A stretch of 62,648 bases of DNA, the filler included, from Kipferlia bialata (lineage: Eukaryota): assembly GCA_003568945.1 (NCBI GenBank). It is 7 parts of 5 records of this genome, joined end to end, with 100 filler letters (N's around TTAATTAATTAA, not from the genome) between each part and the next. Parts side by side here need not be neighbours in the genome. Positions count along the whole stretch, not along the records: positions 35,392 to 50,849 come from BDIP01000700.1; 6 more parts are not named here. One strand, written 5' to 3'. The notes below the pieces were generated by a model. It saw nothing but the letters and a program-made list of their open reading frames with translations, was not told the origin of the DNA and did no database searches. Position 1 is the stretch's first letter. Every line of letters starts with the position of its first letter. Below are positions 1 to 49,908 of the stretch, piece by piece. The position numbers and the translations under genes are program-made.

Positions 1-48
1 TCCTTTTTTTTCTCTCTCTCCTGCCCCCCCCCCCCCCCCTTACCCTAG

Positions 49-2739: not shown

Positions 2740-2862
2740 GGGGGTGTATCGTGTTAATAGATACATTTTGTAGTGACGATGTGAGAATGTGACTCGACAC
2801 CATTATGGAGTCCAATACTGCCTTTGCCATTCCGTTGTATTGGGCAAGTATATGTTACGAAT

Positions 2863-5416: not shown

Positions 5417-5542
5417 ATGTACGGGCTCTCTCTCACAGCGTACCGGAAAGAGCACTGGCAGTGCTGCACTGCACCGTTTTTGTTGTGGCACAATAGTCAA
5501 AAGGGTGTTGCTGGTCTCTACCTCGCTACGTTCTCTAGAGAA

Positions 5543-8500: not shown

Positions 8501-9929
8501 GGAGCTGGTGGAGATTGATCTGCTGGGTGAGTGGGCCACTTGTACATTATATGTATCCTATGGTACTCCTGGTATTGTCACCAACCCCCTACCCCCAGGC
8601 AAGGCCCTCCGCAGAGTGAGTGTGTCCTCTGTCAACGATGACCTCAAGACTATCATGGGGTCGCCTCTAGGTGGGTGTTGTGTACACACATGTGTTCAAT
8701 CTATCTATATTCATGTACACCCTCTTATATGCACACACCCTCACCCCAGTCTGTTTCTCCCAGGACGCCGACAGGCTTCCCGACGGATCCACAGTGGTCC
8801 TCGGTCAGAGCGAGACGGTGCGTATTATATATATATATATATATATAATCATAACTATATACATATATTTGTATGTATCAATAATCCGTGTGTGATATAT
8901 ACAACATTAGTATACCTCTATGCATATCCTCACCCCAGGCCCTTCCCATGGCTGTGCAGATGGCCACCCAGAGGGCCCTCAACACTGGCAAGAAGAGCAG
9001 GAAGATGAGGATCACCCTGCTCAGTGACGTCATAGTGGTGCTGGACACACGGCTAAGGTGGGTGTTGTACGTGTGTTGTACACTCACCCATATATATTCC
9101 TTCGACAGTTTAGTGGACTTGTAGCTATTTGATCATACTCCTCACTCCTAGGGTGTGCTGGACCTGGAGGGCAGCAGACCACATCCCAGCCACATACTTC
9201 AGAGAGCCATTCCAGGTGGATATATATGAATACAATTGTGTATGGGTCCAGATAATGGGTACTCTGTTTGTGGAACACGTCTCTCTCTCTCTCTCTCTCA
9301 CTTTCTCTCCCCCTCTAACGCCAGTATGTCCCCCACCCCAAGCGCCTGTTTGACATGCCCCTGTGGGAGGGCGACACTGCCTTCGACCACACCCATGCCA
9401 CCCAGGTCTCCTACCTGCCTGGGGGTGACTTCCTCGTGTCCCTGAGGTCCCAGGACTGGCTGGTCAGGGTGGACTACAGGTACAGAGGGTGGAGTGGGTA
9501 TAACAGTGTAGTAGTATGTGATATTAGTGTGATTACTGCATTCCTCTCACCCCTCAGAGACGGTGCCGGAGACGGTGACATTCTGTGGAAGCTCGGACCA
9601 GGTGGAGACTTCAAGGTGAGGACATGCTATGACAAAGCAGAATGAGAAGACTTGCACTGGGTAGTGGACTGTATTTTTACCCCTCACTGTCAGATCAAGA
9701 CTGGCGAGCAGGCTGCTCTCCTCGATGCCGCAGGGACAGGGGTCTGGTGGAGCCACCAGTTTGCATTCAGTGCCAGTACACTCCCAGACGGAAGGTGGGG
9801 ATATATATATTAGTATAGAGTAGCATATGCCAATATTTCTTTTATTTTTAAGTCTTCCCCCCTCACCCCTAGGCTTGAGCTTGTTCTGTTTGACAACGGA
9901 TGCCGCATCAACCAGCTGCCAGAGGCCAG
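5543..9929 (+). CDS. Bacterial-type arylsulfotransferase (ASST) family protein, >20 exons, 3' partial
   Basis: Exons give PQPVGT, ALVAMYTVPP, LLVGGLEAQTVYEF, ELVEIDLLG, DADRLPDGSTVVLG, DVIVVLD..LRVCWTW, DHTHAT, DFLVSLRSQDWLVRVDYR, GDGDILWKLGPGGDF, WWSHQ and LVLFDNG. The first exon assignment is uncertain. Confidence 0.8.
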
Positions 9930-9974
9930 GTCGGTGTCGTAACATGACATGTCTGCACACCTACTGTATATGTA

Positions 9975-10019
<45 letters not shown>

Positions 10020-10119: not shown

Positions 10120-10169
10120 CGACCCCCTGCTCCGTAGGCAGACGCTCTATCCAACTGAGCTACGCGTGT
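10120..10169 (-). tRNA. tRNA-Arg(ACG), 3' part truncated by contig end
   Basis: Reverse complement ACACGCG TAGCTCAGTTGGATAGAGC G TCTGC CTACGGA GCAGG GGGTCG shows the acceptor 5' strand, D-arm and anticodon arm with ACG. Confidence 0.85.
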
Positions 10170-10565
10170 ACATAATAGGTGGATATACGTACCTGTAGTA
10201 TACTACCGGAGTAGTATACTTATCATATACCTGTGAGGGATAGACTGACAATTACTGGACTATCCCACAAATTTCAATATTTTACCCTAGTGTATCACAT
10301 GAATCTCCGTGATACACGTGTAGTAAACAGTCAGATGGTGCTGATTTCCTTGAGTATGGGTTACGTACTGAATAGAAAATTGCTATTAATGAGAAGAGTC
10401 TCTCATCCACGAGTCATGGATTCCATGACCCCTACACTCATGCTGAAAGAACACCAATCTATTATGGTGGACTACTACTAACACTTGACAAACACACAAT
10501 AAATGAAAACGCAACAACACAATAACACCCCTCCTCTCTCTCTCTCTATCTCTCTCTCTACCTGA

Positions 10566-13142
10566 CTACTGTGGGTTCCTAGTCCGTACACTGGCCATGG
10601 TGTAGGTACCCCCCTTGGCCTTGCCCCTCTGACCTGGTACTAGGACACCGCCTGATATTAGTATAGTCCTGGGTTCGATTCCAAGCGGGTACAAAATGAA
10701 CATCATCTTACCTACTATGGATATCCCTCCACCGACCCTTCTGGTGTATATCCTATGTGGTGCTGATACACACGTGGGTGTGGAGGTATCCCCAGAGGCC
10801 TCCTCTCCCTCTCCCTCTCCCTCTCTCTCTCTCTCATCTTGAGGGGGAGAGAGAGTGCCACTGGGAGAGAGAGTGTGTGTACTGGGTATGAGGCACCAGG
10901 ACTCGATGGCCTGGACAGGGACACTGAGGGTAAGTACGGTATATATATATAATAATATATATACTGTGCAACTAAGGTGTATATATATATATATATATAC
11001 ATATATGCACCAGGACTCGATGGCTTGGACAGGGACACTGGGGGTAAGTACGTATATAATATATCCTATATAACTTATATAGGCTATATAAGTATACTAT
11101 ATCCAGGGACACTGAGGTAAGATTCTATCAAGAGACTGATACATTACGTGTATGTGTATCATATAGACACTACTGCAATTGATGTCGTCAGTTCCTATTC
11201 TTCTGAGTGTGTACCACCTTGTCCCAGAAGAAGTTTAAAATCCAATATACATATAAAATGTTTAAGAATATGTAGAATATATAGAACATACGATTGGTAG
11301 TACCTGTTCACATTTGTCACCATCTTGTCTCTGAACAGATTGAGCACCCTCTCTCTCCCTCTATCATACGCCATACATGTATATATACTGTTATACCTAT
11401 TCTGACTTGTCACCATCTTGTCTCTGAACAGGTTCAGCACTCTCTCGTTCAGATGGGTCGGGACATAGCAGGGGGCCTGGGGTTGAAGGTATATTGACTA
11501 TATATATATATATATATTTATGGTATATACTATTTTGCAGTGTATATATATAGGGCATCTTTCACCTGTAAGAACTCCTCCACCAGAAATACTTAGTATA
11601 TAAAGTATATATAGTGTACATATACTATATATATGTATATATATATCACCTGTAAGAACTCCTCTACGAGGTTATTATATATATGTAAATATATATCACC
11701 TGCAAGAACTCCTCCACCAGGTTACTGGACTGTGCACCTAGGGCCGCCCTGAGACTGCCACCTGGATATTAAGGGTGTAGCAGGAGAGAAGTATTAATTA
11801 AGGTGTAGAGAGGGGACAATATATATAGTACTTGTAGATGGAATGTGTATCAGAAAAGGGACAGGATATCACTCTAGCTATGTAGTATGGGAGAGAAACC
11901 GGTACCTAGTACAAGGTCCCTCTCTATCCTCTCGCACCCAGCCACGCACTGGAGGCATAGAGAGACAGTATCCCTAGCATAAGGAAGATTGATAGTAGCA
12001 CAATAGACTGAAGTAGCGATAAACATCCTTCTCTCACTGCTGTCGAACAACGTATGCTATTATATATGTGAAAATCATGAGAGTATCTTGATAGTACACT
12101 GAGTACTCACTTTGGCACATCTGCCCCCTGGTACAGAGTGGGTGTCTCAACAATGGCTGCAGCAAGGCGGTCGAGAAGCTGAGGAGTGAGAATGATGACT
12201 CAAAACTACACGAGGTCAAAGATAGAGGTATATATACTAAACGAGTATCAGTGATGAGCGTAGTGGTACCTTGTCCCCTGCCCTGACTGCTATTCTGGCC
12301 AGTCGGCGCCTGGTGTTATACAATAAGTGTCTACATGCATTGTATACTTCTACGATTGTCTGCGAATACATATAATACCTAGGGTCTGTCTGGACTGTCT
12401 GTCTGAACCCTTCCAGTCCAGATACCTACATGTATACATACTATATGAGAATCAATATATCACCTATCAATATGCATATATATACCCATACCTTGGGTCT
12501 GTCTGTACAATCTGTCTGAACCCCTCCAGTCCAGACACCAGCAGCATGGCCAGGAAGGCAGAGAGGCTCAGCTCGTCCTCGAACCAACGCACAGCCTCGT
12601 CTCCCTATGGTGAGGGGTAGAGTAGAACCATATTCACTATATCTTTGATATACAATTAGACTACATATCTACAACAACGTATGTATATATATAGATAGAG
12701 AAGCTCGACTTATCCTCGAACCAACGGATAGCCTCATCTCCCTACGGTGAGATATAGAAGTATAAAAGAAAAGAAATGTATATATACTATGCACATATAT
12801 GCGTACGAATAATTACATCTCACAACAGTAATGAACAGCGCATATGAATGTATGTATTATAGTTACCTCTCCCTCTGCCTGGAACAGTGGCATAAAGTGT
12901 ACAGTAATACCCAAATATATGTATAAAAATACATCGATACATCTATATATCCATCAATACATCGTATGTATACCTCTGCCTCTGCCTGGAACAGTGGCTC
13001 CTGGGTGCCAATATATACGATTATGATAGCCAGATATATATATATATATATATATATATGGATACTGTTTCATACCTCTGCCTCTGCCTGGAACAGTGGC
13101 TCCTGGGTGCTGATGGGCTGGGGCTCAGCTCTGGGATAAGTG

Positions 13143-13177
<35 letters not shown>

Positions 13178-16100
13178 GCATAGATTCATAATATGGGGCT
13201 GATGGGCTGGGGCTCAGCTCTGGGATAAGTGTAAGAAGAACAATTCAACAGACGCAAACACACATACACACATATATATATACAAATATATCTACATATT
13301 CCCGAGATGTGGTGCTGATAGGATGGGGCTCAGCTCTAATGGTGAGGTAACACTATCAATCCGGGACCAGGAACTGCATATATGACATATGTAGACACTT
13401 CAACACATACCTCTCCCATGTTAACTGCCATGTGTTCATGCCACCGTGGGGGTCAGGCTCAGTCATCCTGGGGTCAGATATATAGAGACGATATACATAG
13501 AAAACAGTATATAACAGTATATATATAGTAGCCAGTAGTTTAGAATATATAGTATGTGAATGCGTCCATGGGGGTCTGGCTCAGTCATCCTGGGGGTCAG
13601 AGATCTGACCTATATATGTATGTATACAATATGTCATGTGTTACAATGTATATTATGTGTCATACAACTATTAAGTCACAATTGTAACTCTTAGCAGATA
13701 TTTATCACATCATTTGGACCGAATCGCGATATTGGGATATAAGTGTAAGTGTTCACGCTACACAAGTAAGGATAGTAATGACACTTTCGTACCTTGAGGA
13801 CAGGACTCCGTTACGAGGTGTCACCCTGGCCAGCTGGCCCTGAGAGTGAGATTAATACACTGTCCATTCACGTTTGTATATAGTATAGTAGTGAGAGGAA
13901 GGAGCCAAAGACAATTCGTGGGTAAAGTGGGAGAGTGAAAATGCACTAAAGGGCTAGAGCCAAATACATATTTATGTGTTTAGTGTATATGCGCTAGATG
14001 CGTTGCATACCCTAGTGAGTCCAGTGCTAATAGGTATCTCTGGCACATTGAGCACAGGGGGAGCCAGTGTATACTATATACATATAGAGTATACATCCAG
14101 TATATACATAGTATATATACTAACTCTCGTTAACCCTGTACTGATAGGTATCTCTGGCATATTGAGCACAGGTGCAGCAAGGCCATAATATACTATACTA
14201 TATATACTTTATACTATATACTATATAAAAGTGTATACCCGCGTTAACCCTGTACTGATAGGTATCTCTGGCACATTTAGCACAGGGGCAGCAAGGCCAT
14301 AATATACTATACAATATATACTCTATACTATATACTATATACATAGTACATACCCTTGTCAGTCCTGTGCTTATGGGTATCTCTGGCACATTGAGCACAG
14401 GTGCAGCAAGGGGCACAATGTAGTCAGCGGGGGAGTACCATCTGGGAATGAGTGTGTACACAAATCTATATATACGTATACATATATCATTGTAAGATAC
14501 TTCATTCATTGTGCTATTATAAGAATATGAAGAAAACTAATGTATGCACCAAAATAGAACACTACATGTGGTATTGAGCTAACCAAAGGTGGTATGTGGT
14601 CAGCTAGGCTACTTGTTCATACATATATCCTCGTGACAGTTGAAGTACAGTAGTATCTGCCGCAATTACAATAACACATACGAATATATAGAGTGACAAT
14701 AGCCATTACCTTACAAAGTCTATCAGCTTCGCCCGGGGGTTCGCAGCCTGAGGTTAGATTCTCTCGTACAGACTCATTCCAGATTCGCATTCGTTGTCGT
14801 ATCTGATACATACCCAATAATGCAAAAATAGTATGTTGAGAGAACTATAGCAACGTAATCCATACAACTCGATCTACTCATCTTCACGGTATCTCTGTAC
14901 CTTGAATGCCGACATGTCACTCTGCAACTGCCTGCCAAAATGGGTGTGCAGCCTAGGTGTCAAAATGTACACAACATTTACATACATATTCATACATGCA
15001 TAGGATCACAGAACGACGTGATGTTACACTGCTAAAGCGGGTATGTAACCTGGGGTTATAGAGGTAAGAAACAGCGACGGAGGGATAGAGAGTATTACCA
15101 GCATCCTAGTACCTTGCGTCCTGCAAGTCAAGCAGGTGATTCTCCCCAAGGCTACTCTCGCTCTCTGCCTCTCTACCCACACCTTGGTACTCATCTACCC
15201 CCTCTATACCATCTCCACCCTCTATCCCTGTCGTTGTATCTGAGTAGTCTCTGGGGTCTAGTGATGCATAGGGAGAGGCCATGGACGAGGGTACACTCTC
15301 CATATCTCGAGGATCAATGGAGGCGTAGGGGGAGGCCAGAGAGGATGAAATTCTTTCAGCCTCTCCAGTGGGGGCCATACTGGTACCAGTGACCTAAGAT
15401 AAGCCATATGATAAGAATAAGTCTTATTATGCTATCTAGCACAGGTAACAACATACTATGTGAGAGAGAGAGAGAGAGAGGGGACAAGTACCTCAGTCTT
15501 GCTCCTTCCTATCCCCACTCCCCCCTCTGGCCTCAGTGTCTCCCAGGGTACCACCCCACACGACTCCCTGGCACCTGGAGACACCACACTGTCCCCTACA
15601 CTCCTACCACCCCTACTGCGCATGCTCTCCCCTTTGGCGGACCAGCTTCTGATGCTGCTCTCTCTCTCTCTCTCTCCCTTGCTGGTACTGCCGTGCCTAC
15701 TTGCCCTGTCTCTCTGTGAATCCACTAGGTTCTGGATCTCTCTGATCCTGGGGGTGAGTGTCAACACTATGATATGTATACAAATATATGCTCTAACTGA
15801 GCATTAATATCTTTTCAATCTGTACCCTTATACTCACTTCAGCAGGGATGACTCGACTTGGTCCTCGGTGGTGTTGGGTGCTGTGAAGCAGTACGGCACA
15901 CATATGGGCTCATTACAATCCACACACAGCAAGGGTAGTACCATCCTGACACCCCTGGGCTGTCTCACAACCACACTATCTCTTTCCCTGTCCCTCTCAG
16001 GTGTCTGCAGTGGGTGGTTATTCACGTACTCACCCCCACCGACACTGGGGGAGAGTATAGAGTGCAGCGAGTAGTCCTCACTGCTCCGTGTAGCTGGTAT

Positions 16101-18038
16101 CTCGAACCGCGTAGTATGGACAGCAGGGCTAGCGGCAGTGGAAACGGCTGGAGAGGCCGCGTAGGCCCCCAAGCTCCCACTCATTCCCTCTATGCTCTCT
16201 AAGGGGCAGGGTGTAGGGACACCAGGGGAGAGAGTAGCGGCGCTATAGGGGGAGAGAGAGGCTCCGTTGTAGGAGGAGTCTGGGGATACACTCTGTCCAT
16301 AAACTAGGTCGGTCATGGATATGCCACCTCCTCTACCCATGGTTGATAGTTCTCTCTCCCTCTCTCGCTGTCTCTCTCTCTCCCTCTCCTCTCCGTACCG
16401 CTCTGCAGCACTCTCTCTGGCTATGCGCTCTCTCTCCTCCTTGCCTCTCTCAGCCGTGAAGAAAGTGTCTGGGGTTAAGGGTGTAGGAAGAGAGAGAGAG
16501 AGAGTGAAGACCGTGTCTGGGGTTAAGGGTGGAGAGAGAGAGAGAGAGACAGTGAGTGAAGAACGAGTCTGGGTATATGCGTGGAGAGAGAGAGAGAGAG
16601 ACGAAGAGGGAGAGAGAGTACCTGTGTATTGCTCTACGGGCATGACCAGGTCCGCACTCTCACTGGACTCACTCTGCTCCAGGATGTCGGACAGCACAGA
16701 GTTGGAGGCTGGTATGAGGATAGGTAAGTACGGGGTAAGGATAACACAGAGGGTAAGCTATAATGTGTACTCTATTAATATTAACTCACTCTGCTCCAGG
16801 ATATCAGAGAGGACACAGAAGCTTTGGTTACGGTCTAATAGGAGAAGACCGAGTATCTTCAACGACGTTACCTGTAGCCCTGCTGCCGACACTCTCCCTC
16901 CTAAACGAGGACGCACTGCTACGTCTGATGGTAAGTGCAGATGCATACCACATACTATATACTCATCTGTGCTCACTCGACCACAGTATGTACTCTAACA
17001 CTGTCTATGTATAAGTAGCAGTCTCACACTCATTAATGATACATACTGTATACTCATATGTGTTATCGTGTATTTCTATACCTTGTTACTCTAGCACTCT
17101 CCGTGTGGTCTGGCACCGGTAGGGAGTGTGCCTCATACAGGGAAAGAGACCCTCTTCTATACACAGACACATCCCTGTTGTTAAGATATTATCTCATAAG
17201 GTATAGTAGGAACAGTGGACATCTAATAGTATCTGATGGAGTGACAGACTGCCCCTTCTATACACAGACACATCCCTGGAATCATCTATGGAATCAATCT
17301 TTCAATCAATTAGGAAATTACGTCATATACACAGACACGTCCCTGTTGTTAAGAGAAAACTAGGAAGTACAAGACTAATAGTCCACATCGCCTCTGTTGC
17401 TACCAGCACTCATTTCTAAAGCACACATATTCTGTGAGTCCCGTGACCTGTCCCATCTGGACTCACTATACACACATATGTATANNNNNNNNNNNNNNNN
17501 NNNNNNNNNNNNNNNNNNNNNNNNNNNNNNNNNNNNNNNNNNNNNNNNNNNNNNNNNNNNNNNNATGTATATGTATATATATACCTGTTCTGGGAGTCCC
17601 GTGACCTGTCCCATCTGGATGCCTCACTTCTGCGTCTGCCCCGGGTGACATCCTTCTGTCTGGTTCTGTAGGGTGAGAAATTCGTACTGATATATAAGTA
17701 TATGTATGCATACTTTGTAGGAAGAGTGATTGAGATCTGGTCCCATAGGGTGAGAAACGGAACAATATACATATATATGCATATGTATGTATGCATACTC
17801 TGTAGGAAGACTGAGAGAGAGAGAGAAACTTCTCTCTGGTCCTGAAGGGTGAGATGAAAGTACACTAATCATACACTACTATGGATATATAGAGAAGTAT
17901 ATACGGGTTATGGGTGTATACATGCGTGTATACGTACCTCCCACTCCACGGACATGGGAAGTGTCATACTGATATAAATACGCATATATATGTGTATTAC
18001 TATGTATATATGCGTATATATATGTATATTTATATATG

Positions 18039-18069
<31 letters not shown>

Positions 18070-18559
18070 ATTACTATGTACCTACCACTCCACGGGCACG
18101 GCTCACCGGCCTCCAGCATTGCCTGAGTGTTAGTATACACAAACAGAAATTTATACCTATAAGTACATGTATATGCGAAGTATAGGGTGAGGTAAGGCCT
18201 CAAGTAGGGGCCTAGAAGCTGTGATGTCTCTTTGTATTTGTAACGAGAGTATGAAATTGAATGTATACAAAGGCTCAATACGTCAATATACCATTTACAT
18301 ATGGAGAGTAGAGTAAAGTGGAATATACCTGCACCCCTGGTGGCACACTGGCCATGGGCTGGTCCTTCTTGTTGACTTGACTAGAACCCTGGTATTAGAA
18401 GAATGCGCCTCTAACACAGATGTCTTGACTATATTAGTATGCGTATATGTATACTATTATATATTGTAATATATGCATACCTGAGCCGGTGTCCCCACCA
18501 TGCAGTCTGTGTCGGCAGAGGGGACATAGAGAAGGGCCTGGAGTAAGCAACATATATCG

Positions 18560-18592
<33 letters not shown>

Positions 18593-19469
18593 TACATAGA
18601 GGAGGGCCTGGGGTTACCACAAGCAACACACGAGAGAATGAGAGGGAGAGACACTTCATGAGAGATGTATTCATCATCTGCTTCTCTTTGTCTCTCCCTG
18701 ACTACATTGAACAACAGTGGACTTCTGTTAACAGTATAGTACAATACATACCTGGTTAAGCACCGCCAGCTTCTGGTACAGCAGGTGCTGGTGGGGGCCA
18801 AAGGTAGTGCCTGAGAGGTAAGACATGGAAGAGGTACAATTTGTAGGTATTCTACCCGAAGTAGTGCAAATAGTGAATCCATTACCTATGTATATATGTA
18901 CATATATATGTATATATGGATCCATTACCTATGTATGGAATGAGTCGCCTCTTCTGCCAGTAGAGAGAAATAACAATCCAAGCAAGGATAGAGAGGAAGA
19001 ATGATGATACTTCAGGGTACACTATAGTGCAATGAATCCAGTGCAGCGCCTGGTACCTATATATGGAATGAGTCGCCTCTTCTGCCAGTACGTATGTACA
19101 TATATAGAACTATATATATATAATCAATATAATTATATATGTACATATATAATACCCAGGTCCAAAGGAAGTGCCTATGTATGGAATGAGGCGCCTCTTC
19201 TGCCAGTACAAGTATATGTGAAGTATATATGTAAATATATAGAAACAGAGACGTTACAGAAATGAATCATTATATGGAATGAAAAGAAATGACGTCTGTA
19301 TAGTTGATTGAGACTGTTACCTACGTATGGAATGAGTCGCCTCTTCTGCCAGTACTAGGAAGAATGATAATAATAATAATAATACTTCAGGATACACTAT
19401 AGTGCAATGAATCCAGTGCAGCGCCTAGTACCTATATATGGAATGAGTCGCCTCTTCTGCCAGTACGAC

Positions 19470-19520
<51 letters not shown>

Positions 19521-22500
19521 TACATATATGTGTGTATTACTAGTATTGCAAAGCGTGCATCCACTACCTATGTATGGAATGAGTCGCCTCTTCTGCCAGT
19601 ACTCAGCTATCCTCATGGTGAAGAGAGAGAAGAGACCTGGGGTTAGATGTGAAAGACTCGGCTATCCTCATGGTGAAGAGGGAGAAGAGACCTGGTGTGA
19701 GCATTGGAGACAACAACACTTCTGCTACTGTGAGGCGATTGCACATACCCTTAACCTACTGGCCGGAGTCCCTGACACCCCTTGACCAGTCTGCATACAT
19801 TCAAATGCACATAAATATATACTTACATCTCTCCAGTAGTTATAGGGTAACATTCTAGTATATTGCCTGTTCTCACCTTTTACTTCTGCCGGTCTGAGTC
19901 CCTGACACACCTTGACCAATCTGCATATATATATATATGCACACAATACAAATACTTCATATTATCCGTATGTATATACAGTGTTGCATACCCTTGACTT
20001 CTGCCGGTCTGAGTCCCTGACACCCCTTGACCAGTCTGCACACCAGGCACTGCCTGGGACAGGACTTGAGCCTACAGTCAAGTTGCTTCCAAACATGAAT
20101 ATATGCGTGGATATTACTACATGCATGTATTGATGTATATGAAATATCTCACCTCATGCTCTCCTGTTCTGCCCCCTTCCTGCCCCTCTCCTTCTCCCAG
20201 GCTGGGATGTCACTCTCGGACATGACTGAGGGTGAGAATGGTATAATATATACAACAGATAATGATCAATTCAGTATCTTCGGAAGAACAGTATTCTTAG
20301 AACATCGTCCTCACATACCTGTCTCTATGGCCTGTCTGACATTGGGTGTGATGTCACTATCAATCTATATCCCTAGTCTATTATACATTAGAATACATGA
20401 ACCATATGTATATATATATATATATACACTCAATATACCTGTCTCTATGGCCTGTCTGACATTGGATGTGATGTCACTATCACTCTATATCCTTCGTGTA
20501 TAATACATTAGTATACATGAACTATATTTATATATAAATATCCACTCAATATACCTGTCTCTATGGCCTGTCTGACACTGGGTGTGATGTCACTATCACT
20601 ACATATACTACGTATACACTGGGTGTGAACTACTCCATATATACTCTATACCTGTCTCTATGGCCTGTCTGACATTGGGTGTGATGTCACTATCACCAGG
20701 AGGGGTGTGCATACAGGTCACAATGGTTCGTAACACCTACAATTAGATGTAGTGTAGTATACTAAGTATAGAAAGAGACATAGAAATGCCTCAACAATAC
20801 AATAACACAGATAAGAAATGCATATATATGCCCAGGTGGATACAACAAGTGACATGGTACGCAGAACCTATGGGTGGTGTAGAGAGATATACTCACAAAC
20901 AAGTATATATGTAGACACTGTAGATACTCTTGTGTATATATACCTGTGACACCCTGTACACAGTGGGCTGGGGCACATACTAATGTATAAATATACATAT
21001 ATAACATGTACTATTACTGTACAATATATACAATTACATACAAATACATATATAAATACATATATACATACACATACCTGTGACACCCTGTACACTGTGG
21101 GCTGGGGCACATACCAGATGCGCCAGTCCTGAGATAAGAAAGGTAGAGTCAGAAGATAAGAAAGGAAGGAGAGGAGGTATGACGAGAGTTATTGACGAAG
21201 CAGTCCACATATATATAGGAGATACTTCTGCTGGTACATACCGGCGCCTCATGGACGTTCAGACCCTCCGTAAGGGTGCCTTGAAGTAAGACTGCTGAGA
21301 GAGAGAATGAAAGAGAGAGCGTACCAAATATGGACATCTTCCAGCAGACACTGCATCCAGCCCTTAGAGGTGACTATTGTGGATATTTACACATGTGTGT
21401 ACACTATACAACACACCTGACGGGCACAGTGGGAACACTTTAGTATATATAAACTGATGGAACTGATGGGCACGGTAAGAAGTGTAATATATACATATAA
21501 ATATATATATAATTTACACCTGACGGGCATGGTGGGAATGCCACTGCCAGACAGAGTGATCCAGCTGGAGACACAGAGGCACCCAGGGGGCATAGAGGGG
21601 AGGGTGGCTAGGTATGAGAACACTAACTACTTGGAGACTGACAGACACTACCTATGTGTCTCGAATGGTATATATAGACACAAGCATACATATATACATG
21701 GATACCTGCTGCATTGGGAAAGGTGTCTCAAAGAGCATTGAGCATGCCTCCACAACCCCACCTGTAAGGGCACCAGCCCTGGAGTTAGTATACANNNCAT
21801 GCCTCCACAACCCCACCTGTAAGGGCACCAGCCCTGGAGTTAGTATACATTCACTATACATATATACATATACATTGAGAGAGATAGAAATTGATATATA
21901 GTATACGAATATGTATATATATATATGCACAGAGCATGCCTCCACAACACCCCCAGTCAGGGCACCAGCACTGGAGTTAGTACAGAGTCCATACTCGCAA
22001 TATACATATATGAAACTACCGTCCAATAATCACCCTAGATGCGGCACCTACCTGGGAATGTATACATACCACTAATAATATTAATAGTTCTAATGTATTC
22101 ACATATACAACTTATACCATACCCTAAGTGTGGCATGACCCTGGGTATGTCCCTCCTGACCAAGGGGACAGACAGGGTGGGGTGGGTGTCTATCACCTAG
22201 TGTGAGGAACCAGATATATATACACAAATTTATAGATATACACACAGTTGAGCACTCAACGAGAAAGAGACTCTAAGGGTATTGAGTAGTACTCTGTACC
22301 TTGTGTCTGTAAGATGCCGCGTAGGACTGGCCATAGAGCAGCTGGGTGCCTGGGGGTAGAGCTATACACGTAAACATATGCGTGTGTGTCAATACCGCTA
22401 TAGACAATGTAGAGTAGATGGGGCAATTGCATACACATATACTACACTTATACCTATGAATCTATAGAAATGTGAACATGCAATTTCTAAATACACTACG

Positions 22501-23306
22501 TTACATAAACCTTTGAACTCTACCCCTGCTGGTCCACCACCCCTGCCACAGACCATGAGGTAAATGTATATTGTATAATGCATATATATATACACAATGC
22601 AATATCCTATATATATAGGTATTTGGTATACATACCTTTGAACTCCACCCCTACTGGTCCCCCTCCCCTCCCACAGACTATGAGGGGCAAAGAGAGTGGG
22701 GCAACGACCTGACGTTAGAAAATGAAAAGTGCATGTCGAGTCACACATCTATACATATTGTGAATTACTATACGAGAATCCACCGGAGGGTAGATGTGTA
22801 CCTTCACACTATTGCTGTCTCCAGGTGTACCAGTGACTGATATCCCAGGGCTCTTCACTGGTGTCCCCCACTCCCTCTGCCACCCACCGCCACCTCTCTC
22901 CCTCGCATCAACCTCTCTGCCTGCACCCTCGGCAGACCTGGGAGATTAGGGTATATACATATATATGAATATTAGTATATATATATATATATACACTATA
23001 TATTAATTCACACACACATATATGGGCTTGGGATATCTCTACCTCTACCTGCACCCACAGCAGACCTGGAGGTAAGACACTATATATATGTATAGGGGCT
23101 TGACACACAATACGACTCATGGAGTCCTGTTGAATGTATAAGAAAGGAATCTTACCTCTCCATCAATGTGGCCAGGGACAGTGACTCTGGGTGTGACAGG
23201 GAGTGGCTCAACAACCTATGCAGAGAGACAGCTGCTTCGGAGAGGGCTGGGGTTAGAGAGGGTATATATATTCATACAGTTAGAGAGACAGAGAGAGAGA
23301 GACAGA

Positions 23307-23355
<49 letters not shown>

Positions 23356-23605
23356 TGATCCAACAGTCTGTGCAAGGAGACAGCTGCCTCAGATAGGGCT
23401 GGAGTGAGGACAGAGAGATGTGCGTATTGACTACACTAACTGCCGACAGGGACAGTAAACATTCATACATTACAAACATATACATATATTACCATCTATA
23501 TATATATGATTATCTATAATACATAGAATATCATATTGTATCTATATAACCATTTGTATATACCTGCCAGCAGTGATGGTAGCAGTGCTGACCCTGGCAT
23601 AGTGG

Positions 23606-23643
<38 letters not shown>

Positions 23644-24563
23644 TATATACAATATATAGATCTATAATTATACAATATAATTATACATAGTGATGTTACT
23701 TGTGCATACCTGCCAGCAGTGATGGTAGCAGTGCTGACCCCGGCATAGTGGTTGGTATCTGGGTGTGCGTGTACTCCCATGGAAGGGTGTCAGCCTGTGG
23801 TATAAGAGAGAGAGAGAGAGAGAGAGGCAGGGGGAGAGAGAGAGAGAGAGAGAGAGATAGAGCGTGTACTCCCATGGTAGGGTGTCAGCCTGAGAATTAG
23901 GTAGATGGTGAGAGATATCTAAGAATAATGGTAGGGTGTCAGCCTATGACATCAGTGAGAGAGAGTGAGAGAGAGTGAGAGAGAGAGAGAGAACCAACAC
24001 TCATCACCCGTGTCAGAACGACAGCCAATGACTAAATAATGAGAGAAAGAAGACATATAATAGAAATACTACAGATGGAGATTAGGAATGGAGGGGGGGT
24101 GAAAGTGTGTGTGATATATTCAGAGAGAGATACGTACCGCAGATGGGGAGGGAGCGCCACCGGCTAGCACTCTTGTGTCGGGGACCAATAGAAGTGCGCC
24201 TGGGGTTAATGATCACGGGGGATCTAGTGAGAGTGGAACTGTACCTGTAATGCCCAATAGCAACAGAGGCATGACTGCACCCTATGTCGTATGCAAAAAT
24301 GTAAGTATATACATGTATATGTATATATATATATACTCTACCTGTGATACTTAGCAGTAGCAGTGGCATGACTGCTGGGACTGCACCATCAGACGTATGC
24401 ATATATATATTATTACAGATATATATATACACATATGCATGTATATATACTATATAAACCTGTGATACTTAGCAGTAGCAGTGGCATGACTGCTGGGACT
24501 GCACCCTCCGTGAGTACAGGGGAGTGGGGGAAGCGCATCTGGAGTTAGTTAATAATGTATACA

Positions 24564-24602
<39 letters not shown>

Positions 24603-25400
24603 GTATATATGAAGAGAGAGTGAGAGGGATACCCTCTGTCAGCACAGGGGAGTGGGGGAAGCGCATCTAGAGTTAGATTCAAATAGGAGAGAGGTCTCAA
24701 TTGTTTCGGAACGAGAGAGAGAAGTACAGGGGAGAGGGGGAAGCGCATCTGGAGGGTTACAGTTGGAGAGACATGGAACGGAATATAGGGATCCATACAC
24801 TAATATATATCCCCTGGTCCCTCTCTCTGCCCCTATCTATATGTGTGTATGTGAGTATATTGTACTCACCTGTCCACTTGACAGTGCTGCTGTAGGCGAC
24901 AGTGGGTACTGGACGACAGAGAGAGATGGGGGCACAATCACTCTCTCCCCCTCACTATCTAGATCATGTCCCTCATGTGCTGCAGACACAGAGGATATGG
25001 AGTGACATATACCCAACCCCCCGTGGGAGAGAGAGGAGTCATCCTCAGAGACTGACGGCAGCACATGCACAGAGTCTCTCTCTCCCTCCTCACCCTCCTC
25101 CTCTCTCTCTACATCTACGGATACAAGAGTGTCAGCAAGTGACCCCCCATCTCCCTCCCCCTCTCCCTCCCTATAGAATGCATCGTCAGTAGATGATGAT
25201 ATCTCACCGGCCTCCTGCCGCTGTCTCTCTCTCTCCCTCTCCCTATACAAATCCTGACGTAAGCAAAGGGAATGACCATCAAATAGTATATCTTGCGCCA
25301 TCATATGTCAGAAAACAGACAATGGATAGTACCTGGTATGTGCTCTGCAATGAACACCGCCTCACATCAGTCCCAGGGGGGAGGGCGGCAGTCTTGCCAG
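10566..25400 (-). CDS. RAB3GAP1: Rab3 GTPase-activating protein catalytic subunit (multi-exon, 5' partial)
   Basis: Spliced motifs MRIAEYWQKRRLIP, HLLYQKLAVLNQ, EPICVP...TTEDQVE, LQSDMSAFK-AANPRAKLIDFVR-WYSPADY, GVLSSRM...NTWQLTWERAEPQPISTQEPLF and PHRIY match the Rab3GAP1 signature SDMxxFKAANP...DFVRWYSPxD. Stop TAG at 10566-10568. Confidence 0.85.
14008..14441 (-). repeat. Functional exon (14354-14441) plus three downstream exon-3'/donor echoes
   Basis: The segment coding LAAPVLNVPEIPISTGLTR, followed by GT, recurs at about 14239-14295, 14125-14181 and 14011-14067. Confidence 0.9.
18882..19693 (-). repeat. Array of exon-end echoes around the exon SLFTMRIAEYWQKRRLIPYIG
   Basis: tacctatgtatggaatgagtcgcctcttctgccagta (or close variants) occurs at about 18926, 19053, 19173, 19318, 19428 and 19565 (real exon). 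An acceptor-side copy lies at about 19656-19693. Confidence 0.9.
20317..20737 (-). repeat. Three donor-side echoes of the exon ending DSDITPNVRQAIET
   Basis: tacctgtctctatggcctgtctgacattgggtgtgatgtcactatca occurs at about 20317, 20436, 20552 and 20649 (real exon). Confidence 0.9.
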
Positions 25401-41479: not shown

Positions 41480-42685
41480 TCAGTCTGCATCTTTGAACCT
41501 CTCAAACAGCTCTGGATCTAGCTCCACCACCAGTGTCCTCTCCATCTGTTCCACTAGCATGGTGGTGGGGTTGAGCATGCATGCACATAGAACCTTATCA
41601 GGGAAAGGTAGGGGCTCACAGAGAGTAAAGTCACCAGACACTATGTCATACATGCAAACACAGCGTGTCCCATCTTCCTCTTCACCTAGAGACTCTTGTC
41701 TTACCCTTCCAAACATACATATGAAGTGACCGGTGTTGACAGCTACGTGCCAGTTTCTTGAAAGCGGCAGCCGGATACTTGTATCAGTCACTACCCCCAA
41801 TGTGGCGGCACCTTGGCCACTTAGCGACATAGACACAGATATGGGCCCAAGAAAAGCGACGACTGAGTCTCGAATGCTGCACATTGCAGTGGTGAAACCA
41901 AAGACCTTATGACACGGCACTTTTTCAATTGACACGTTAGTCCAGGGATCTGTGTTGTCCATGTTGTTTAGATTCAAGCACCACATGTCTTGAAAGAAAG
42001 TTGGGGGTCTAGGCACTGCAGTGGTGTTCGACGCGAGGCGGCATCCGCCTGTAACCACAAGTGTCTCGTCGACAATCACAGCTTTGAAACCAAGCATTGG
42101 CCGGGGCCAGTAACAGTCTCCTGTGCACTGTACATACATAGTCTCTCCTGTGTCTGGGTGAAAAACGCAGACTGCCAGTCGTGATGGTATGATGTCTTCC
42201 GCAGCAGCTCGAACTCCACCTGCCAATAACGAAGAGGTCACTAGTACTGTCTGGTTGGGCCCACTGACTAGTACAGGATATACAGCAGCGTGGGGTCCTT
42301 CTGTCTGTGGCGGCACCAGTTGTAACACATCAGTGAGTGCTAGAGTGGTGGGGTCTACAGTGTACCTGGATGAGAAAATTCTAGTATATCTCACGCAAGA
42401 TCATAAGCTTAGTACCACACAGAAGAGTTGTATCGGACGCAAACGATCCATAACGACAACCCTTGCTACCCAATTGAATAGCCTAAAACATACAGAATAG
42501 GTAACCACATTGATATCAAGTGTTTTGCGCTATCACAAACATAGGTATCAATCATACCTGTCAACCTGCCCGTTATCGGCCGCTGCTAGAATGGTGTTGT
42601 GGAATAGTTTTGCCACAGACAGATAGTGCACTCCACTGCCAAGCTGTATCTCTCTACAGCTGAGGTACCACCTCTTGGGTGCCAT
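41480..42685 (-). CDS. Divergent kelch-like beta-propeller protein, 2 exons
   Basis: Exon 1 MAPKRWYLSCREIQ...GQVDR splices in frame to the long ORF containing LVVTGG, DMWCLNL...W, WHVAVNTGHFICMFG and MYDIVSGDF. Confidence 0.7.
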
Positions 42686-44315: not shown

Positions 44316-45160
44316 TTATCTCAGGAGATTATATTGATACATTTGAGGCTCTCTCTCTCCCTAGCCCTCGGCCATGTATGTAGTAGTAATATGGTTATGT
44401 AAATGGTGTGTATATGCGGAAGGCAGACAGTGAGGCAATATATATAGTAGATACTAAGAGCGTATGGAAGAGAGAGAAATGCAGAAAGACAGAGGGAGTC
44501 AAGGAGAGACATGGAGAGAGAGAGAGAGAGAGAGAGATGGGGTGTCCGGATGCAATGATAAGGGATCATATGAGGCCACATACATTTTGAGCAGGGACAG
44601 AGACTTCTCCTCACAAAGCCGCAGCTCTGCTTGGTGGCGCAAGAGTTGCCGGATACTGGGCATTCCCAAGTTCGAGTTCAATGACCCAAGGGTGGCCAAA
44701 TATTGGGCAAAAGAAGATTCGAAAGAGCTGGGAGCCACGTACTTTTCGAAATTCAAAAACTTTCCGGAAAATCCTGTTTCCGCCTCTGGACCTGAAAACA
44801 CCTCTAATTCTTGAAGCAGTATCCTCGAAGGGGTCATGCTAATGAGGGAGCGACTCTGAAGGCAGCGACTCGGGACGCTGCACCCTATCTTATCCGCTTT
44901 TACGACTATTTGGCCGGAAAGCTTCGGACTTTCCCTGGACCCTTTAATCCCACAAGTACGGGCTCCCAGACCTATTCAAATAGGTCTGCCCTCTCCACTG
45001 TCTTTAGAATTGAACATCCCACCCATCGTTCATTGGTTATCCCTCTATTATCACATTTTACTTCTTGCCCTTCTTCTTGCCCTGCCCTGCTATTATTCAT
45101 CGAGTATAGAACCTTAAATTCAACACATTTTGCAATAATAATCTATTCTCTGTTACTCAG

Positions 45161-47371
45161 TTACTTCTTGCCCTTCTTCTTGCCCTGGCCTGCCTTGAAG
45201 AACATGATGTCTCCGTCCTGAACGACGTAGTTCCTGCCCTCCATGGTGACCTGTGATCGGTGTTAGTATCATATATATGTATATATTATTACTGATACTC
45301 AGTATCAGTATGAGCGTTAGATCTAGACTAGACCTAATTAACACTACGATCAGTATATGTATCATGTGTGTAGATGATACTGACAAGTGACCTTGCCAGC
45401 TGCATCTCCCCCATACTTTTGCGTCAGTATCAGAATTATTATCTCATTATCACATGGTATTTCATATTCTGACCTTGCCGGCAGCCTTTGCCTCTGCCTC
45501 TCCACCATACTCAACTAGGTCATCGTATCTGGTCACCTCAGCACAGATGAAGTTGTCCCTGGGGTGTGAGAGGGAGAGAGACAGAGAGAGAGCCACTGGC
45601 TGGCAAATAGTCAGTTGCCCCTTGTATGAGTATTATTCTTGAGGAACAGAGAGGGAGAGAGAGAGGGAGATAGAGAGAGAGAGATGTACCTGAAGTCTGA
45701 GTGGATGACGCCAGCGGCATCGGGTGCCTTGCATCCCTCTCTGATGGTCAGTGTCAGTATCAGTATCAGTATACTGATACCTGATGGTCCAGCACCTGAC
45801 CTCCCTAACACTACATCCACCCTCCCACACTCTCTCTCTATACTAATACATATATACATATATATACATATATCCATACACACATACCTGATGGTCCAGC
45901 ACCTGACCTCCCTCACACCAACGGTGAAGAAGTGGATAAGGTGCAGGGCGCGGTAACCTTAGGTAAGGCGCACAAATATATAAGTAATGAGAGGTACATA
46001 CATGATATATGTATACAAATATAATTCTATACTATAAACACACATGCTGAAAGAAATAGTATATAATGGGATGATATATATTCACAACATACCTGTGGCA
46101 ATGATCTTCTTGAGGGCGGTTCCCTTGCCCTCTGCCTCCAGAGCAGCCTGCTCCTCGGGGGTCATGTAGTGCAGCTCCTGCTCGTACTAGGGTGAGAGAC
46201 ATAGAGACAGACAGGCAGAGAGAGAGAGAGAGAGAGATACAATGAGTGTCCTCGGGGGTCTTGTAGTGCAGCTCCTGCTCGTACTAGAGTGAGAGAGGAG
46301 AAGAGAAGAAGAAAGAGAGAGAGACTAGCATACTAGACTTATCGGGGGTCATGTAGTGCAGCTCCTGCTCGTACTGATGTAAGTGATATAGAGACTAATA
46401 GACAGATGGAGAGAGTAAGGTACTATTAGTGTCCTCGGGGGTCATGTAGTGCAGCTCCTGCTCGTACTGGGGTGAGTGGTGTATATAAACCGATAGAAAG
46501 AGATATATGGTGGGAGAGAGAGAGAGTAGTGCAGCTCCTGCTCGTACTGGGGTGAGTGATAAGCCTATCAGATATAAGAGAATGGCAGAAAGAGAGAGAG
46601 AGAGGCAGAGAAGGTACCTATAGACTGAATGTGATTAAGAGAGAAAGAGACAGAGAGATAGATGCATATATACTACCTGAGCACTGAATGGGATGATGGG
46701 ATCATGTGTATTGAGACAGTACGAGACAGATAGAGAGAGAGTGCAAGCCAGTACCTGTGCGCTGAATGGGATGATGGGGTCGGTCTTGGAGGACTCCTTG
46801 ATCCAGGCTACGACCTAGATTGTGAGGAGAAGTGTGATTACACGATGTCTCAGTTCTATATATATAGTATATATACCTTCTTGAGCCACTTGTTCTTCTT
46901 CCTGAGGTAGTCCTTGGCAGACATCTCTCTCTCTCTCTCTCTCTCTAATATATATATATGTACACACAATGCACAAATACCTTCTTGAGCCACTTGTTCT
47001 TCTTCCTCAGGTAGTCCTTGGCAGACATGTTGATGAGGTAGATGACAGGCTTGGAGGTCAGGAGGAAGAGGTCCCTGAGGTGAAATGTATATATATACAC
47101 ACAGACACATTAACACATATGTATTCATTAATGAGAGAGACACTTAGATGACAGGCTTGGAGGTCAGGAGGAAGAGGCCCCTAGTATACGATATAGGTGG
47201 TAAATATAAATATAACAATACAGAGCATATGAGAGATATAGTTGTAATAGTCAGATAGCAGGTATAGAGGTCAGGAGGAAGAGGTCCCTGAAGTGAGAAT
47301 TGTTTTATACATGAAGAAGAAAGATAAAGAGAGAGAGAGTATACCTGATGATGAGTATCTCAGAACTTGGT

Positions 47372-47406
<35 letters not shown>

Positions 47407-48751
47407 AAGAGAAAGAGACATACATGTATAGAGAGAGAATGGTACCTGATGATGGGGATCTCAGCAGACTTCCAGTCGACGTTACGGGCATCGACGTTGT
47501 TCCTGGGGTAAATGGAGACCAAACACACAATCTTATGTATATATGTGTACGGTGTATGTATATAATATACTTACTTCAGGTTCTCGAGGCACTTGTGGAG
47601 GACAGGCAGCATATATATGTGTATGTGTGTATATATAGTATCAGTATCAGTGTCAAGTACTGTAGATATACACTTACTTCAGGTTCTCCAGGCACTTGTG
47701 CAGGACTGGGAGCATGTCCTTGGCATCCTTGTTGGAGGACATGCCCTGGGGGGAGAATACAAGTGAACAATGTGAATAGAATTCTAAAGACTTTGTATAT
47801 GGTAATGCTGAGTACAGTATAGCCGGTGTACCTTGTTGATTGCGTTCTGGCACTCTGCAATCTTCCTCTCAAGGGTGGCAATGTCCTTGAAGACAAGCTC
47901 ATCGTGGATGATGGAGAGGTCCCTGAGAGTAAGTATATATAAACACACACACCTATATATATGTATATATATAGAGAGATAGAGAGAGAGAGTGGCAATG
48001 TCCTTAAACACAAGCTCATCGTGGATGATGGAGAGATCCCTAAGAGTAAGGGATGTCATATATGAAGAGATAGAGAGAGACAGGGTGGCAATGTCCTTGA
48101 ACACAAGCTCATCGTGGATGATGCTAAGGTCCCTGGGGTTAATAGATGTATATAGGGAGAGAGAGAGGGGGAGAGAGAGAGAGAGAGAGAGGCAATGTCC
48201 TTGAACACAAGCTCATCGTGGATGATGGAGAGATCTCTGAGAGTAAGAATATTGATATATATATATACACACACACACACATATATATATATATAGAGAG
48301 AGAGAAGGGGCAATGTCCTTGAAAACACGCTCATCGTGGATGATGGAGAGATCCCTGAGGGTAAGGCTTGTATAGGAGAGGGAAGGGGGGGGAGAGACAG
48401 AGAAAGACGATATAACTGGGTCACGAGCTCTCCTTCAACGCATGTGTCTCAACACACGAGATGTATATATAGACACTAAACATATTGGATAGGCACACAC
48501 ACACATATATGTAAATATATATCATTATTACATACCTGACAGGGTCCACCTCTCCCTCGACGTGTGTCACCATGTCGTCATCAAAGAGACGCACAAGGTG
48601 GTAGATGCCGTCAACGGCCCTGGAAGTCAGTGACGACAGAGAATACACAATAATATATGTACTGAGAGAGAGAGAGAGAAGGTGATAGATGCCGGCCATG
48701 GGAGTCGGTGAGAGCAATACATAGTTGACAAGGAAATATTAACAAATACAT

Positions 48752-48785
<34 letters not shown>

Positions 48786-49908
48786 GAGTAATGGTGTTGA
48801 ATGTACATATGCACAATATAGATACACACCTGATGTTGGAGAGGAAGGCATTGCCAAGTCCCTTTCCCTCGTGAGCTCCACGCACAAGTCTGGGGTGAGG
48901 AAGGGGGGGGGGGGGTTAGGGAGAGATTGAATTATTGGGAGGGAGAGTGTGTGTGGGAATGGCTTATATAGTAGCCCAAGTACACCCACCCTTCGATGTC
49001 GATACCCCCGTGTACTTAAATATATGCTAGAGAGACAGAGTATGATAGAGTGTCAGTACATATATAGACCCACCCTGCGATGTCGATGACCTCCAGGTGG
49101 GCAACAGATACACAAATATATAGAGATTGAGGTAGAGATGATGATATAGTAAGAGTGCAGATATATACCCACCCTGCGATGTCGATGACCTCGAGGTGGG
49201 CAGGCACCTCAGAGGCAGGTCTGATGTTCTTGCGGAGCCACTCGAACCTCTCATCAGGCACAGCAACACGGGCCTGGAGTAAGAGAGGTACTGAGTTGTA
49301 ATATAGAGACAGGGGGAGAGAGAGAAAGTGAAGAGCATTGGGCTCCGCAATTTATATACATAGATCGTGAGAGAGAGAAATACTGGAAGTTACATACGTC
49401 AGCTAGCATTGAGTAAACTAGTTAGGAGAGGAAGGGATCATGTACATTGGTATACCAACGGGGGGATATGATACGAAGCTCATTAAGGTAGAGGTACACT
49501 AATATACATATAAGAGAGAGAGAGACACACACACACATAAAAGCTTGGTACCTTGTTGGGGTCGATGGTGTATGGGATAATGGGAATATACATACAAGAC
49601 GCACTATATATGTTCACCTTGTTTGGGTCGATTGTGCAGAATGGGAAGTTCTCAGATGGCACCTCCTGGTTGCTCATCATGTTGAACATCAGGGACTTGC
49701 CGACATTGGGGAGGCCAACGATACCTGGGGTGAGCTGGGAGTCACCCCAGCAGCATATTAGCGGAGAGTGTACATAAAGATATGGTATGATAACTCGCAA
49801 TATTGAGTAATTCTTCCTCCACTCACCGCAAGAGAGGGTGTTCTTGGAGCGTCCCAGCAGCTGGATCTCAGTTGTTGGCTCGTCGTCACCCTTGGTCTTC
49901 TTTGCCAT
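45161..49908 (-). CDS. OLA1: Obg-like ATPase 1 / YchF, complete multi-exon gene
   Basis: Motifs [98 protein letters not shown] and [16 protein letters not shown]. Stop TAA at 45161-45163. Confidence 0.95.
46155..46558 (-). repeat. Four acceptor-side echoes of the OLA1 exon starting [11 protein letters not shown]
   Basis: gtagtgcagctcctgctcgtact occurs in the real exon (about 46166) and again at about 46263, 46353, 46446 and 46526. Confidence 0.9.
47832..48356 (-). repeat. OLA1 exon (47832-47922) plus four upstream acceptor-side echoes
   Basis: The segment coding [15 protein letters not shown], each time preceded by its own YAG, recurs at about 47992, 48082, 48191 and 48309. Confidence 0.9.

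What the first reader, a model, noticed from the sequence alone, without database searches (positions are those of the whole stretch)
47832..48356. OLA1 intron contains four intact decoy acceptors with synonymous exon starts
Four upstream copies of [15 protein letters not shown] each keep a normal-looking 3' splice site (cttactcttag, ttaaccccag, cttactctcag, cttaccctcag) and then run into (CT)n with no matching donor. Changes are nearly all silent, including TCC>AGC Ser, a two-nucleotide switch. One L>R change occurs in the most distal copy. To make OLA1, the spliceosome must skip four acceptors in a genome of otherwise very short introns. Inference: strong exon definition, stepwise re-splicing, or DNA-level removal.
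Basis: partly seen in the sequence, partly recalled or inferred. Interest (0 to 1): 0.75.

Follow-up and report, generated by a model that had tools for sequence, protein, structure and literature searches.

The report
Protein-preserving exon echoes in protist introns
In a free-living relative of Giardia, most introns of three genes carry short spare copies of the neighbouring exon's edge and splice signal whose changes mostly keep the amino acids, likely because the copies are refreshed by DNA exchange with other working alleles while splicing is predicted to ignore them.

Summary
Confirmed, and much wider than one intron. The gene encodes Kipferlia bialata OLA1 exactly (397 of 397 residues); intron 5 (48535-47923) holds four acceptor-plus-exon-start copies with 9 silent and 1 replacing base changes. 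In three genes modelled on named K. bialata proteins, 39 of 65 introns carry such copies (80 segments): donor copies after the real donor, acceptor copies before the real acceptor. In the two genes scored, 57 of 60 keep GT/AG. Differences from the real exon: pS 0.20, pN 0.027 (ratio 0.08, 0.12, 0.22), while the spacers barely align. Decay or exchange within one clonal lineage predicts about 0.5; two genes reject that, the third does not (p=0.23). Architecture: amphioxus 'mirage' and human F7-type splice-junction repeats, which this scan found before in several marine invertebrates. New here: a short-intron protist, this density, and protein-level conservation of apparently untranslated copies. 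Best reading (0.55): old tandem duplicates refreshed by unequal exchange with diverged working alleles, tolerated by exon-centred splice-site choice. No reads could be examined, so both steps are inferred.

The parts
45161..49908 (-). OLA1/YchF gene, 15 exons and 14 GT-AG introns; product identical to K. bialata protein P0001 (397 aa)
   Evidence: exact spliced parse; Pfam MMR_HSR1 and YchF-GTPase_C; name
47923..48535 (-). OLA1 intron 5, 613 nt, longest intron of the gene
   Evidence: same in all 6 exact parses
47832..47922 (-). real exon 6 (91 nt)
47989..48051 (-). copy 1 (nearest): branch point, TAG and 51 nt of exon start, 4 synonymous changes
48082..48144 (-). copy 2: acceptor and 51 nt, changes CTC>CTT, TCC>AGC, GTC>GTG, all synonymous
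48191..48248 (-). copy 3: acceptor and 46 nt, 3 synonymous changes (one in the split Arg codon)
48309..48366 (-). copy 4 (most distal): acceptor and 46 nt, 2 synonymous changes and L>R
48415..48448 (-). decayed, gapped copy of the exon 5 end in the same intron, without its GT
   Evidence: score 27 against a best of 22 for 55 other exon edges; weak
46249..46558 (-). second OLA1 acceptor array (intron 10): four copies, 0 synonymous and 1 non-synonymous change
45058..45090 (-). copy of the last 33 coding bases including the stop codon, about 100 nt downstream of the gene; no splice site involved
10569..25398 (-). Rab3GAP catalytic-subunit gene (P0121, 43 exons); 43 copies in 22 of 42 introns
31148..35074 (-). 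hypothetical-protein gene (P0127, 10 exons); 18 copy segments in 8 of 9 introns

Best explanation
The copies are tandem duplicates of exon edges (about 35 coding bases plus the splice signal, spaced about 105 bases apart) that are likely untranslated but likely kept fresh by unequal recombination or gene conversion with the working exon of other, strongly diverged alleles. Step 1 (shown): each intron carries copies of its own flanking exon ends, donor copies downstream of the real donor and acceptor copies upstream of the real acceptor. Step 2 (inferred): the spliceosome pairs sites across the exon, so the first donor and the last acceptor win, which makes such duplications survivable. Step 3 (inferred): between alleles whose microsatellite-rich introns no longer align, exon edges are the only islands of homology, so a copy often pairs with the real exon of another allele and takes over its sequence and splice signal. 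A copy then differs from its neighbour mainly by the silent differences between working alleles (about 0.18 per silent site) plus a little decay (about 0.02). This needs a very diverse, recombining (sexual or parasexual) species and exchange some 40-50 times faster than mutation.
For: Silent bias: OLA1 21 of 29 unique changes (12.3 expected if the real exon also drifts, p=1.5e-4); Rab3GAP 66 of 94 (41.4 expected, 0 of 200,000 draws). It survives matching on base and neighbours, transversions only (43 of 59 against 18.6), removal of CpG changes, and both sides separately; bootstrap pN/pS 0.11, 95% range 0.06-0.19, 62 copies in 39 families. pS is 0.19-0.20 in all three genes. Splice signals differ in sequence yet score like real ones: 30 of 31 donors and 27 of 29 acceptors keep GT/AG. 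Spacers are far more diverged than 20% point change would give (gapped score 11.7; unrelated 3.4; simulated 48.8). No gradient of divergence with distance. Copies of one array end at the same place within a few bases and two sites show three synonymous states. Copy-against-copy pN/pS is 0.20. Replacing changes are no milder than random, as for decay after copying. Toy simulation: exchange within one chromosome gives 0.50-0.65; exchange between alleles with theta 0.25-0.3 and rate 40-50 mu gives 0.08-0.12, pN 0.015-0.025. In the amphioxus BflGb6 mirage, by eye, copies of haplotype 1 carry at least two silent variants of the real exon of haplotype 2.
Against: The third gene is not significant (21 of 41 unique changes silent, 18.3 expected, p=0.23; ratio 0.22; two nonsense changes). 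OLA1's other array has no silent change at all. The frame-free test outside OLA1 is weak on adjacent mismatches (59 of 148 in phase, p=0.056). Frames come from predicted proteins. The simulation is a toy with whole-tract conversion and tuned parameters; with theta 0.05 it gives 0.25, and several settings give 0.35-0.65 even with exchange between alleles. The first contig has no copies in 10 kb with 58 acceptor motifs, which the model does not explain.
Confidence: 0.55

Rival explanations
1. Same exchange, but the donors lie inside one cell: diverged homologues of a polyploid or hybrid, or segmental paralogues, with no need for outcrossing.
For: The third gene has three K. bialata accessions in one 90% cluster, and one of them is predicted with a first exon that matches a decayed donor copy here. 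Most variable sites have two states.
Against: OLA1 and Rab3GAP, which show the strongest bias, have one cluster member on one contig each. The published draft reports one eukaryotic coverage peak. Two sites have three synonymous states.
Confidence: 0.13
2. The copies are held constant at the nucleotide level because they act on the RNA (decoy sites that tune splicing or feed decay), and the silent differences arose in the real exon afterwards.
For: Splice signals are intact in 57 of 60 copies. A frozen copy against a drifting exon gives silent-only differences.
Against: Variants do not form a series along the array: copy 2 alone has CTT AGC, and GAC/GAT alternates. Splice signals and spacers of the copies differ among themselves. 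No frame bias (17 of 57 in frame). A stop-codon copy lies outside any intron.
Confidence: 0.1
3. Ordinary neutral mirage minisatellites in one lineage; the silent bias is a by-product of mutation spectrum, detection or conversion with the neighbouring exon.
For: The architecture is known; decayed copies exist (6 of 112 tests against about 2 by chance); the third gene fits.
Against: Predicted pN/pS is about 0.5 or more; observed 0.06-0.19 in two genes after spectrum, neighbour, CpG and transversion controls.
Confidence: 0.09
4. The copies reach the protein: stepwise re-splicing, or DNA-level loss of the spacer joining a copy to the real exon.
For: It would explain protein-level conservation directly. 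Two donor copies allow alternative exact parses through an exonic AG|GT.
Against: No AG|GT at the four copies; 24 of 27 acceptor copies have no real-grade donor before the next acceptor and 27 of 30 donor copies no acceptor motif before them; 24 of 31 introns are one-sided. The arrays are present in the assembled DNA. Nonsense changes occur in copies.
Confidence: 0.07
5. Assembly artefact: diverged haplotypes of a mixed culture strung together by a short-read assembler.
For: Spacing (median 106 nt) is close to a short-read length; the window is seven short contigs joined by linkers; functional alleles would give silent differences; no reads were checked.
Against: Each copy-to-spacer joint is unique sequence that no working allele would contain. 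Copies with stops, indels and lost splice sites exist. Some copies share spacer and variants with each other and not with the real exon. The pattern occurs on 6 of 7 contigs with strict polarity.
Confidence: 0.06

Closest known systems
Amphioxus 'mirages' (Adh3, globins BflGb6/BflGb9, troponin C, PGBD5). Seen: passages and supplementary file 4 of PMC3087553, passages of PMC3902484; Canestro 2002 (PMC117041) not held.
   Same: Tandem copies of an intron-exon boundary, at either end, many with AG/GT, reported not to disturb splicing; concerted turnover proposed.
   Different: There a handful of loci in an animal, whole units 81-100% alike with alignable intronic parts. Here 39 of 65 introns in a unicellular fornicate, spacers mostly unalignable, only coding part and splice signal kept, and a counted silent bias; the passages seen report no such count.
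Human splice-junction minisatellites (F7 intron 7, 6-16, CBS, lamin B2, PDGF). Seen: abstract and passages of PMC1557585.
   Same: Reiterated donors, of which the most upstream is used.
   Different: Homogeneous VNTR units with few exonic bases (4 in F7), donor side, in long-intron genes.
Exon-centric proximity rule of exon definition. Seen: passages of PMC9225289.
   Same: Sites closest across the exon are chosen, which is what the named proteins require here.
   Different: That paper ties it to introns above about 250 nt and expects the intron-centric rule for short introns; here copy-free introns have a median of 113 nt, and K. bialata has 87 of 174 spliceosomal proteins with no snRNA candidates found (passages of PMC6679479).
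Silent donor cassettes kept in shape by gene conversion (avian immunoglobulin pseudogenes, antigenic-variation cassettes); recalled, from no call.
   Same: Untranslated copies that look protein-conserved because they exchange with a working gene.
   Different: Those diversify one gene family on purpose; here 15-57 nt pieces beside housekeeping exons with no sign of diversification.

Membership tests
Mirage / splice-junction minisatellite | Tandem copies spanning an exon-intron boundary next to the real one | tested here: met
   spacing median 106 nt
Mirage / splice-junction minisatellite | Both 5' and 3' boundaries duplicated, many copies keeping GT/AG | tested here: met
   30 of 31 donors, 27 of 29 acceptors
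Mirage / splice-junction minisatellite | Whole unit, intronic part included, alike between copies (81-100% in BflGb6) | tested here: not met
   flank score 11.7 of 80; only 12 of 57 flanks beat 95% of unrelated introns; a few young copy pairs do align
Mirage / splice-junction minisatellite | mRNA uses only the authentic site | tested here: inconclusive
   required by the predicted proteins and by colinearity with homologues; no RNA reads seen
Mirage / splice-junction minisatellite | Copy-number variation between alleles or cells | not testable with these tools
   no second allele or reads
Recursive splicing (definition recalled) | AG|GT at the internal site regenerates a donor | tested here: not met
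   the four copies read AG|GG or AG|AG
Mutually exclusive duplicated exons (definition recalled) | Each copy is a whole exon with its own acceptor and donor | tested here: not met
   copies are 15-57 nt exon edges; 3 of 27 acceptor copies have a real-grade donor, 3 of 30 donor copies an acceptor motif
Nested (inside-out) intron removal (definition recalled) | Matched inner donor-acceptor pairs | tested here: not met
   24 of 31 copy-bearing introns are one-sided
Programmed DNA elimination between direct repeats (definition recalled) | DNA molecules lacking the spacer | not testable with these tools
   no reads available

The most novel reading that the evidence does not exclude
Kipferlia introns are built from, and store, pieces of other working alleles: most introns in large parts of the genome are a rolling archive of exon edges captured by recombination in a hyperdiverse, recombining free-living fornicate, so a single genome records population diversity (about 18% at silent sites) and sex, and its reduced spliceosome must define exons although the basic intron is only about 100 nt.
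Probability: 0.4. Interest if true: 0.82.

Novelty: new variant of a known kind. Interest (0 to 1): 0.62.

Why it matters
If true, (1) it is a rare case of protein-level conservation in sequence that is not translated, readable as evidence for recombination between very diverged alleles in a free-living fornicate, where sex is argued mainly from gene inventories (passages of PMC8516963 on Carpediemonas); (2) it gives dozens of natural splice-site competition tests per 60 kb in an organism with short introns and a reduced spliceosome, where the intron-centric rule predicts the wrong site; public transcriptome reads could test this at once; (3) it explains intron length in these genes (about 137 + 103 nt per copy) and warns that gene predictors can pick copies as exons; (4) it suggests a testable link between mirages and high allelic diversity, since amphioxus copies seem to carry the other haplotype's variants.

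Tried and rejected
No whole genome was held and no sequencing runs could be listed, so presence in reads and splice usage stay open. A metagenome scan with OLA1 gave 117 relatives, 80 kept, none above 58% identity; not used further. A first hand-made exon list was off by a base at several borders and was replaced by exact parsing. A homologue search for the third gene found nothing; the representative search did; the first parse failed on a 9-nt first exon and was redone. The automatic donor/acceptor call on 75 families left 8 unclassified and put at least two OLA1 families on the wrong strand, so its 61 of 67 polarity figure is approximate. Forcing the decayed intron-4 copy up to the splice site adds 5 misaligned replacing changes (25 of 38 silent, still p=3e-4); the main counts use the unforced alignments. 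Rejected: age gradient along arrays (none); frame preservation (none); conservative amino-acid changes (none); CpG or transition bias as cause; recursive, nested and mutually exclusive splicing. Literature: Kipferlia with introner gave 0 papers; Kipferlia with intron gave 33, 29 listed, none on such copies by title or start of abstract; searches for silent bias in such repeats gave 1 unrelated paper and 0 papers; searches gave nothing closer. Two key papers were not held, so 'not in print' is limited to these searches.

Full report
Identity. A search with the first coding stretch returned a Kipferlia bialata OLA1 protein as best hit. An exact spliced parse of the minus strand gives all 397 residues with 14 GT-AG introns; 6 parses exist, all with the same intron 5, 48535-47923. 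The protein aligns without insertion to 7 homologues across the exon 5/6 junction. Two more genes parse exactly to named K. bialata proteins: Rab3GAP catalytic subunit, 1473 residues, 43 exons, and a 244-residue hypothetical protein, 10 exons. These proteins are predictions; the genome paper states that over 97% of its models had transcript support (PMC5874029, sections 7 and 12 and passages read). The window is seven contigs joined by linkers.

The observation. The four copies, their acceptors, TCC>AGC and the single L>R are as described. Nine unique base changes are silent, one is not. A decayed copy of the exon 5 end also lies in this intron. Introns are not very short (median 212 nt, 56 introns).

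It is general. The window has 165 local repeat pairs (0 in 3 shuffles) in 75 families with 189 members; 67 of 75 were given a splice site, and in 61 of these 67 the first donor or last acceptor is the member that continues into exon-like sequence (approximate). In the three modelled genes 9 of 14, 22 of 42 and 8 of 9 introns hold copies; one copy duplicates the stop-codon end of OLA1. Copies are 15-57 nt, spaced at a median of 106 nt. Intron length is about 137 + 103 nt per copy. Six of seven contigs have them; the first 10 kb has none.

What is conserved. Against the real exon, copies show 125 silent and 56 replacing differences: pS 0.198, pN 0.027; per gene the ratio is 0.08, 0.12 and 0.22. 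A copy decaying beside an exon that drifts at silent sites should give about 0.5, also with conversion inside one chromosome (argument). On unique changes OLA1 (21 of 29) and Rab3GAP (66 of 94) reject this; the third gene (21 of 41, p=0.23) does not. For the first two genes the excess holds under base, neighbour, CpG and transversion controls; 93 of 123 unique changes are at third positions. A frame-free test outside OLA1 gives 222 of 483 mismatch pairs in phase, but only 59 of 148 adjacent pairs (p=0.056). The branch A lies 7-9 nt from the intron end in 51 of 56 introns, and copies keep working-grade signals of different sequence. Spacers are close to unrelated. So the copies keep exactly what selection keeps in a working allele: amino acids and splice signal.

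How it likely works, splicing (inferred). The copies are as strong as the real sites (18 of 31 donors and 15 of 29 acceptors score at least as high), mostly lack a partner site, and 24 of 31 introns are one-sided. Using a copy would stretch the exon from a median of 85 to 207 nt; 49 of 54 internal exons are 136 nt or shorter, but five are 212-631 nt, so there is no hard limit. Choice of the nearest pair across the exon fits; PMC9225289 (passages) describes this rule for long introns and the opposite for introns under about 250 nt. K. bialata keeps 87 of 174 spliceosomal proteins (PMC6679479, passages). No RNA read was seen.

How it likely works, DNA (inferred). A duplication of about 105 nt hardly fits inside a 100-nt intron, so survivors span an exon edge. 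Shared end points within an array point to one founding event; unalignable spacers point to age; near-identical coding parts point to continued exchange. Silent differences between copies, private variants without positional order and two three-state silent sites point to several working source alleles. A toy population model reproduces pS, pN and their ratio only with high diversity and fast exchange between alleles (other settings do not). Fornicates lack NHEJ and Rad51A and have two Dmc1 paralogues (PMC8516963, passages), which makes homologous repair central but does not test the model. Donors inside the same cell remain possible: the third gene has three near-identical accessions, OLA1 and Rab3GAP one each.

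Comparison. The architecture is that of amphioxus mirages (PMC3087553, passages and supplementary file 4; PMC3902484, passages) and human splice-junction minisatellites (PMC1557585, abstract and passages). I reached the mirage papers through earlier notes of this scan, which record the same kind of repeat in sea urchins, annelids, molluscs and fish (unchecked); nothing was noted for this genome. It works like a mirage and meets the positional tests, but fails whole-unit homogeneity. In the BflGb6 alignment, by eye, haplotype 1 copies carry silent variants of the haplotype 2 exon, so the silent bias may not be unique to Kipferlia. The founding paper and the internal-duplication paper were not held, and supplements of the other papers were not read; they may bear on novelty.

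Verdict. Real (an artefact is put at 0.06), general, a new variant of a known kind. The surprising part is protein-level conservation of copies that seem untranslated, in a short-intron protist. Interest 0.62; mechanism 0.55; both inferred steps can be tested with reads and a few isolates.

Noticed in passing
window 1-10019: First contig: intron-rich (58 acceptor motifs), GC 0.52, few AT microsatellites and no repeat family, against up to 31 families on other contigs. Suggests two genome compartments.
   Followed up: partly
window 31148-35074 (-): The 244-aa hypothetical protein has three K. bialata accessions in one 90% cluster, no Pfam match for the 222-aa form; by eye it resembles short RNase Z (recalled, untested). 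The 222-aa model starts with a 9-nt exon that matches a decayed donor copy at 34693.
   Followed up: partly
window 49189-49091 and 45907-45796 (-): Donor copies duplicate an exonic AG|GT, allowing alternative parses that give the same protein with one more intron: raw material for intron gain by duplication, though the new acceptors lack a clear branch motif.
   Followed up: partly
all 56 modelled introns of OLA1 and Rab3GAP: Branch motif directly before the acceptor (A 7-9 nt from the end in 51 of 56) and AG before the donor in most, recalling the tight branch spacing of Giardia and Trichomonas introns (recalled).
   Followed up: partly
window 36385-36750: Whole-exon-sized duplication interrupted by an 88-N gap, and a 55-nt exact repeat with NNN at 21743-21849: places where the assembly may misstate copy number.
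   Followed up: no
window 41480-42400 (-): Intron-free 306-codon frame with a weak Kelch match below Pfam's cut-off.
   Followed up: no
window 10120-10170: A tRNA-like stretch at the start of the second contig, seen by eye; not scanned.
   Followed up: no
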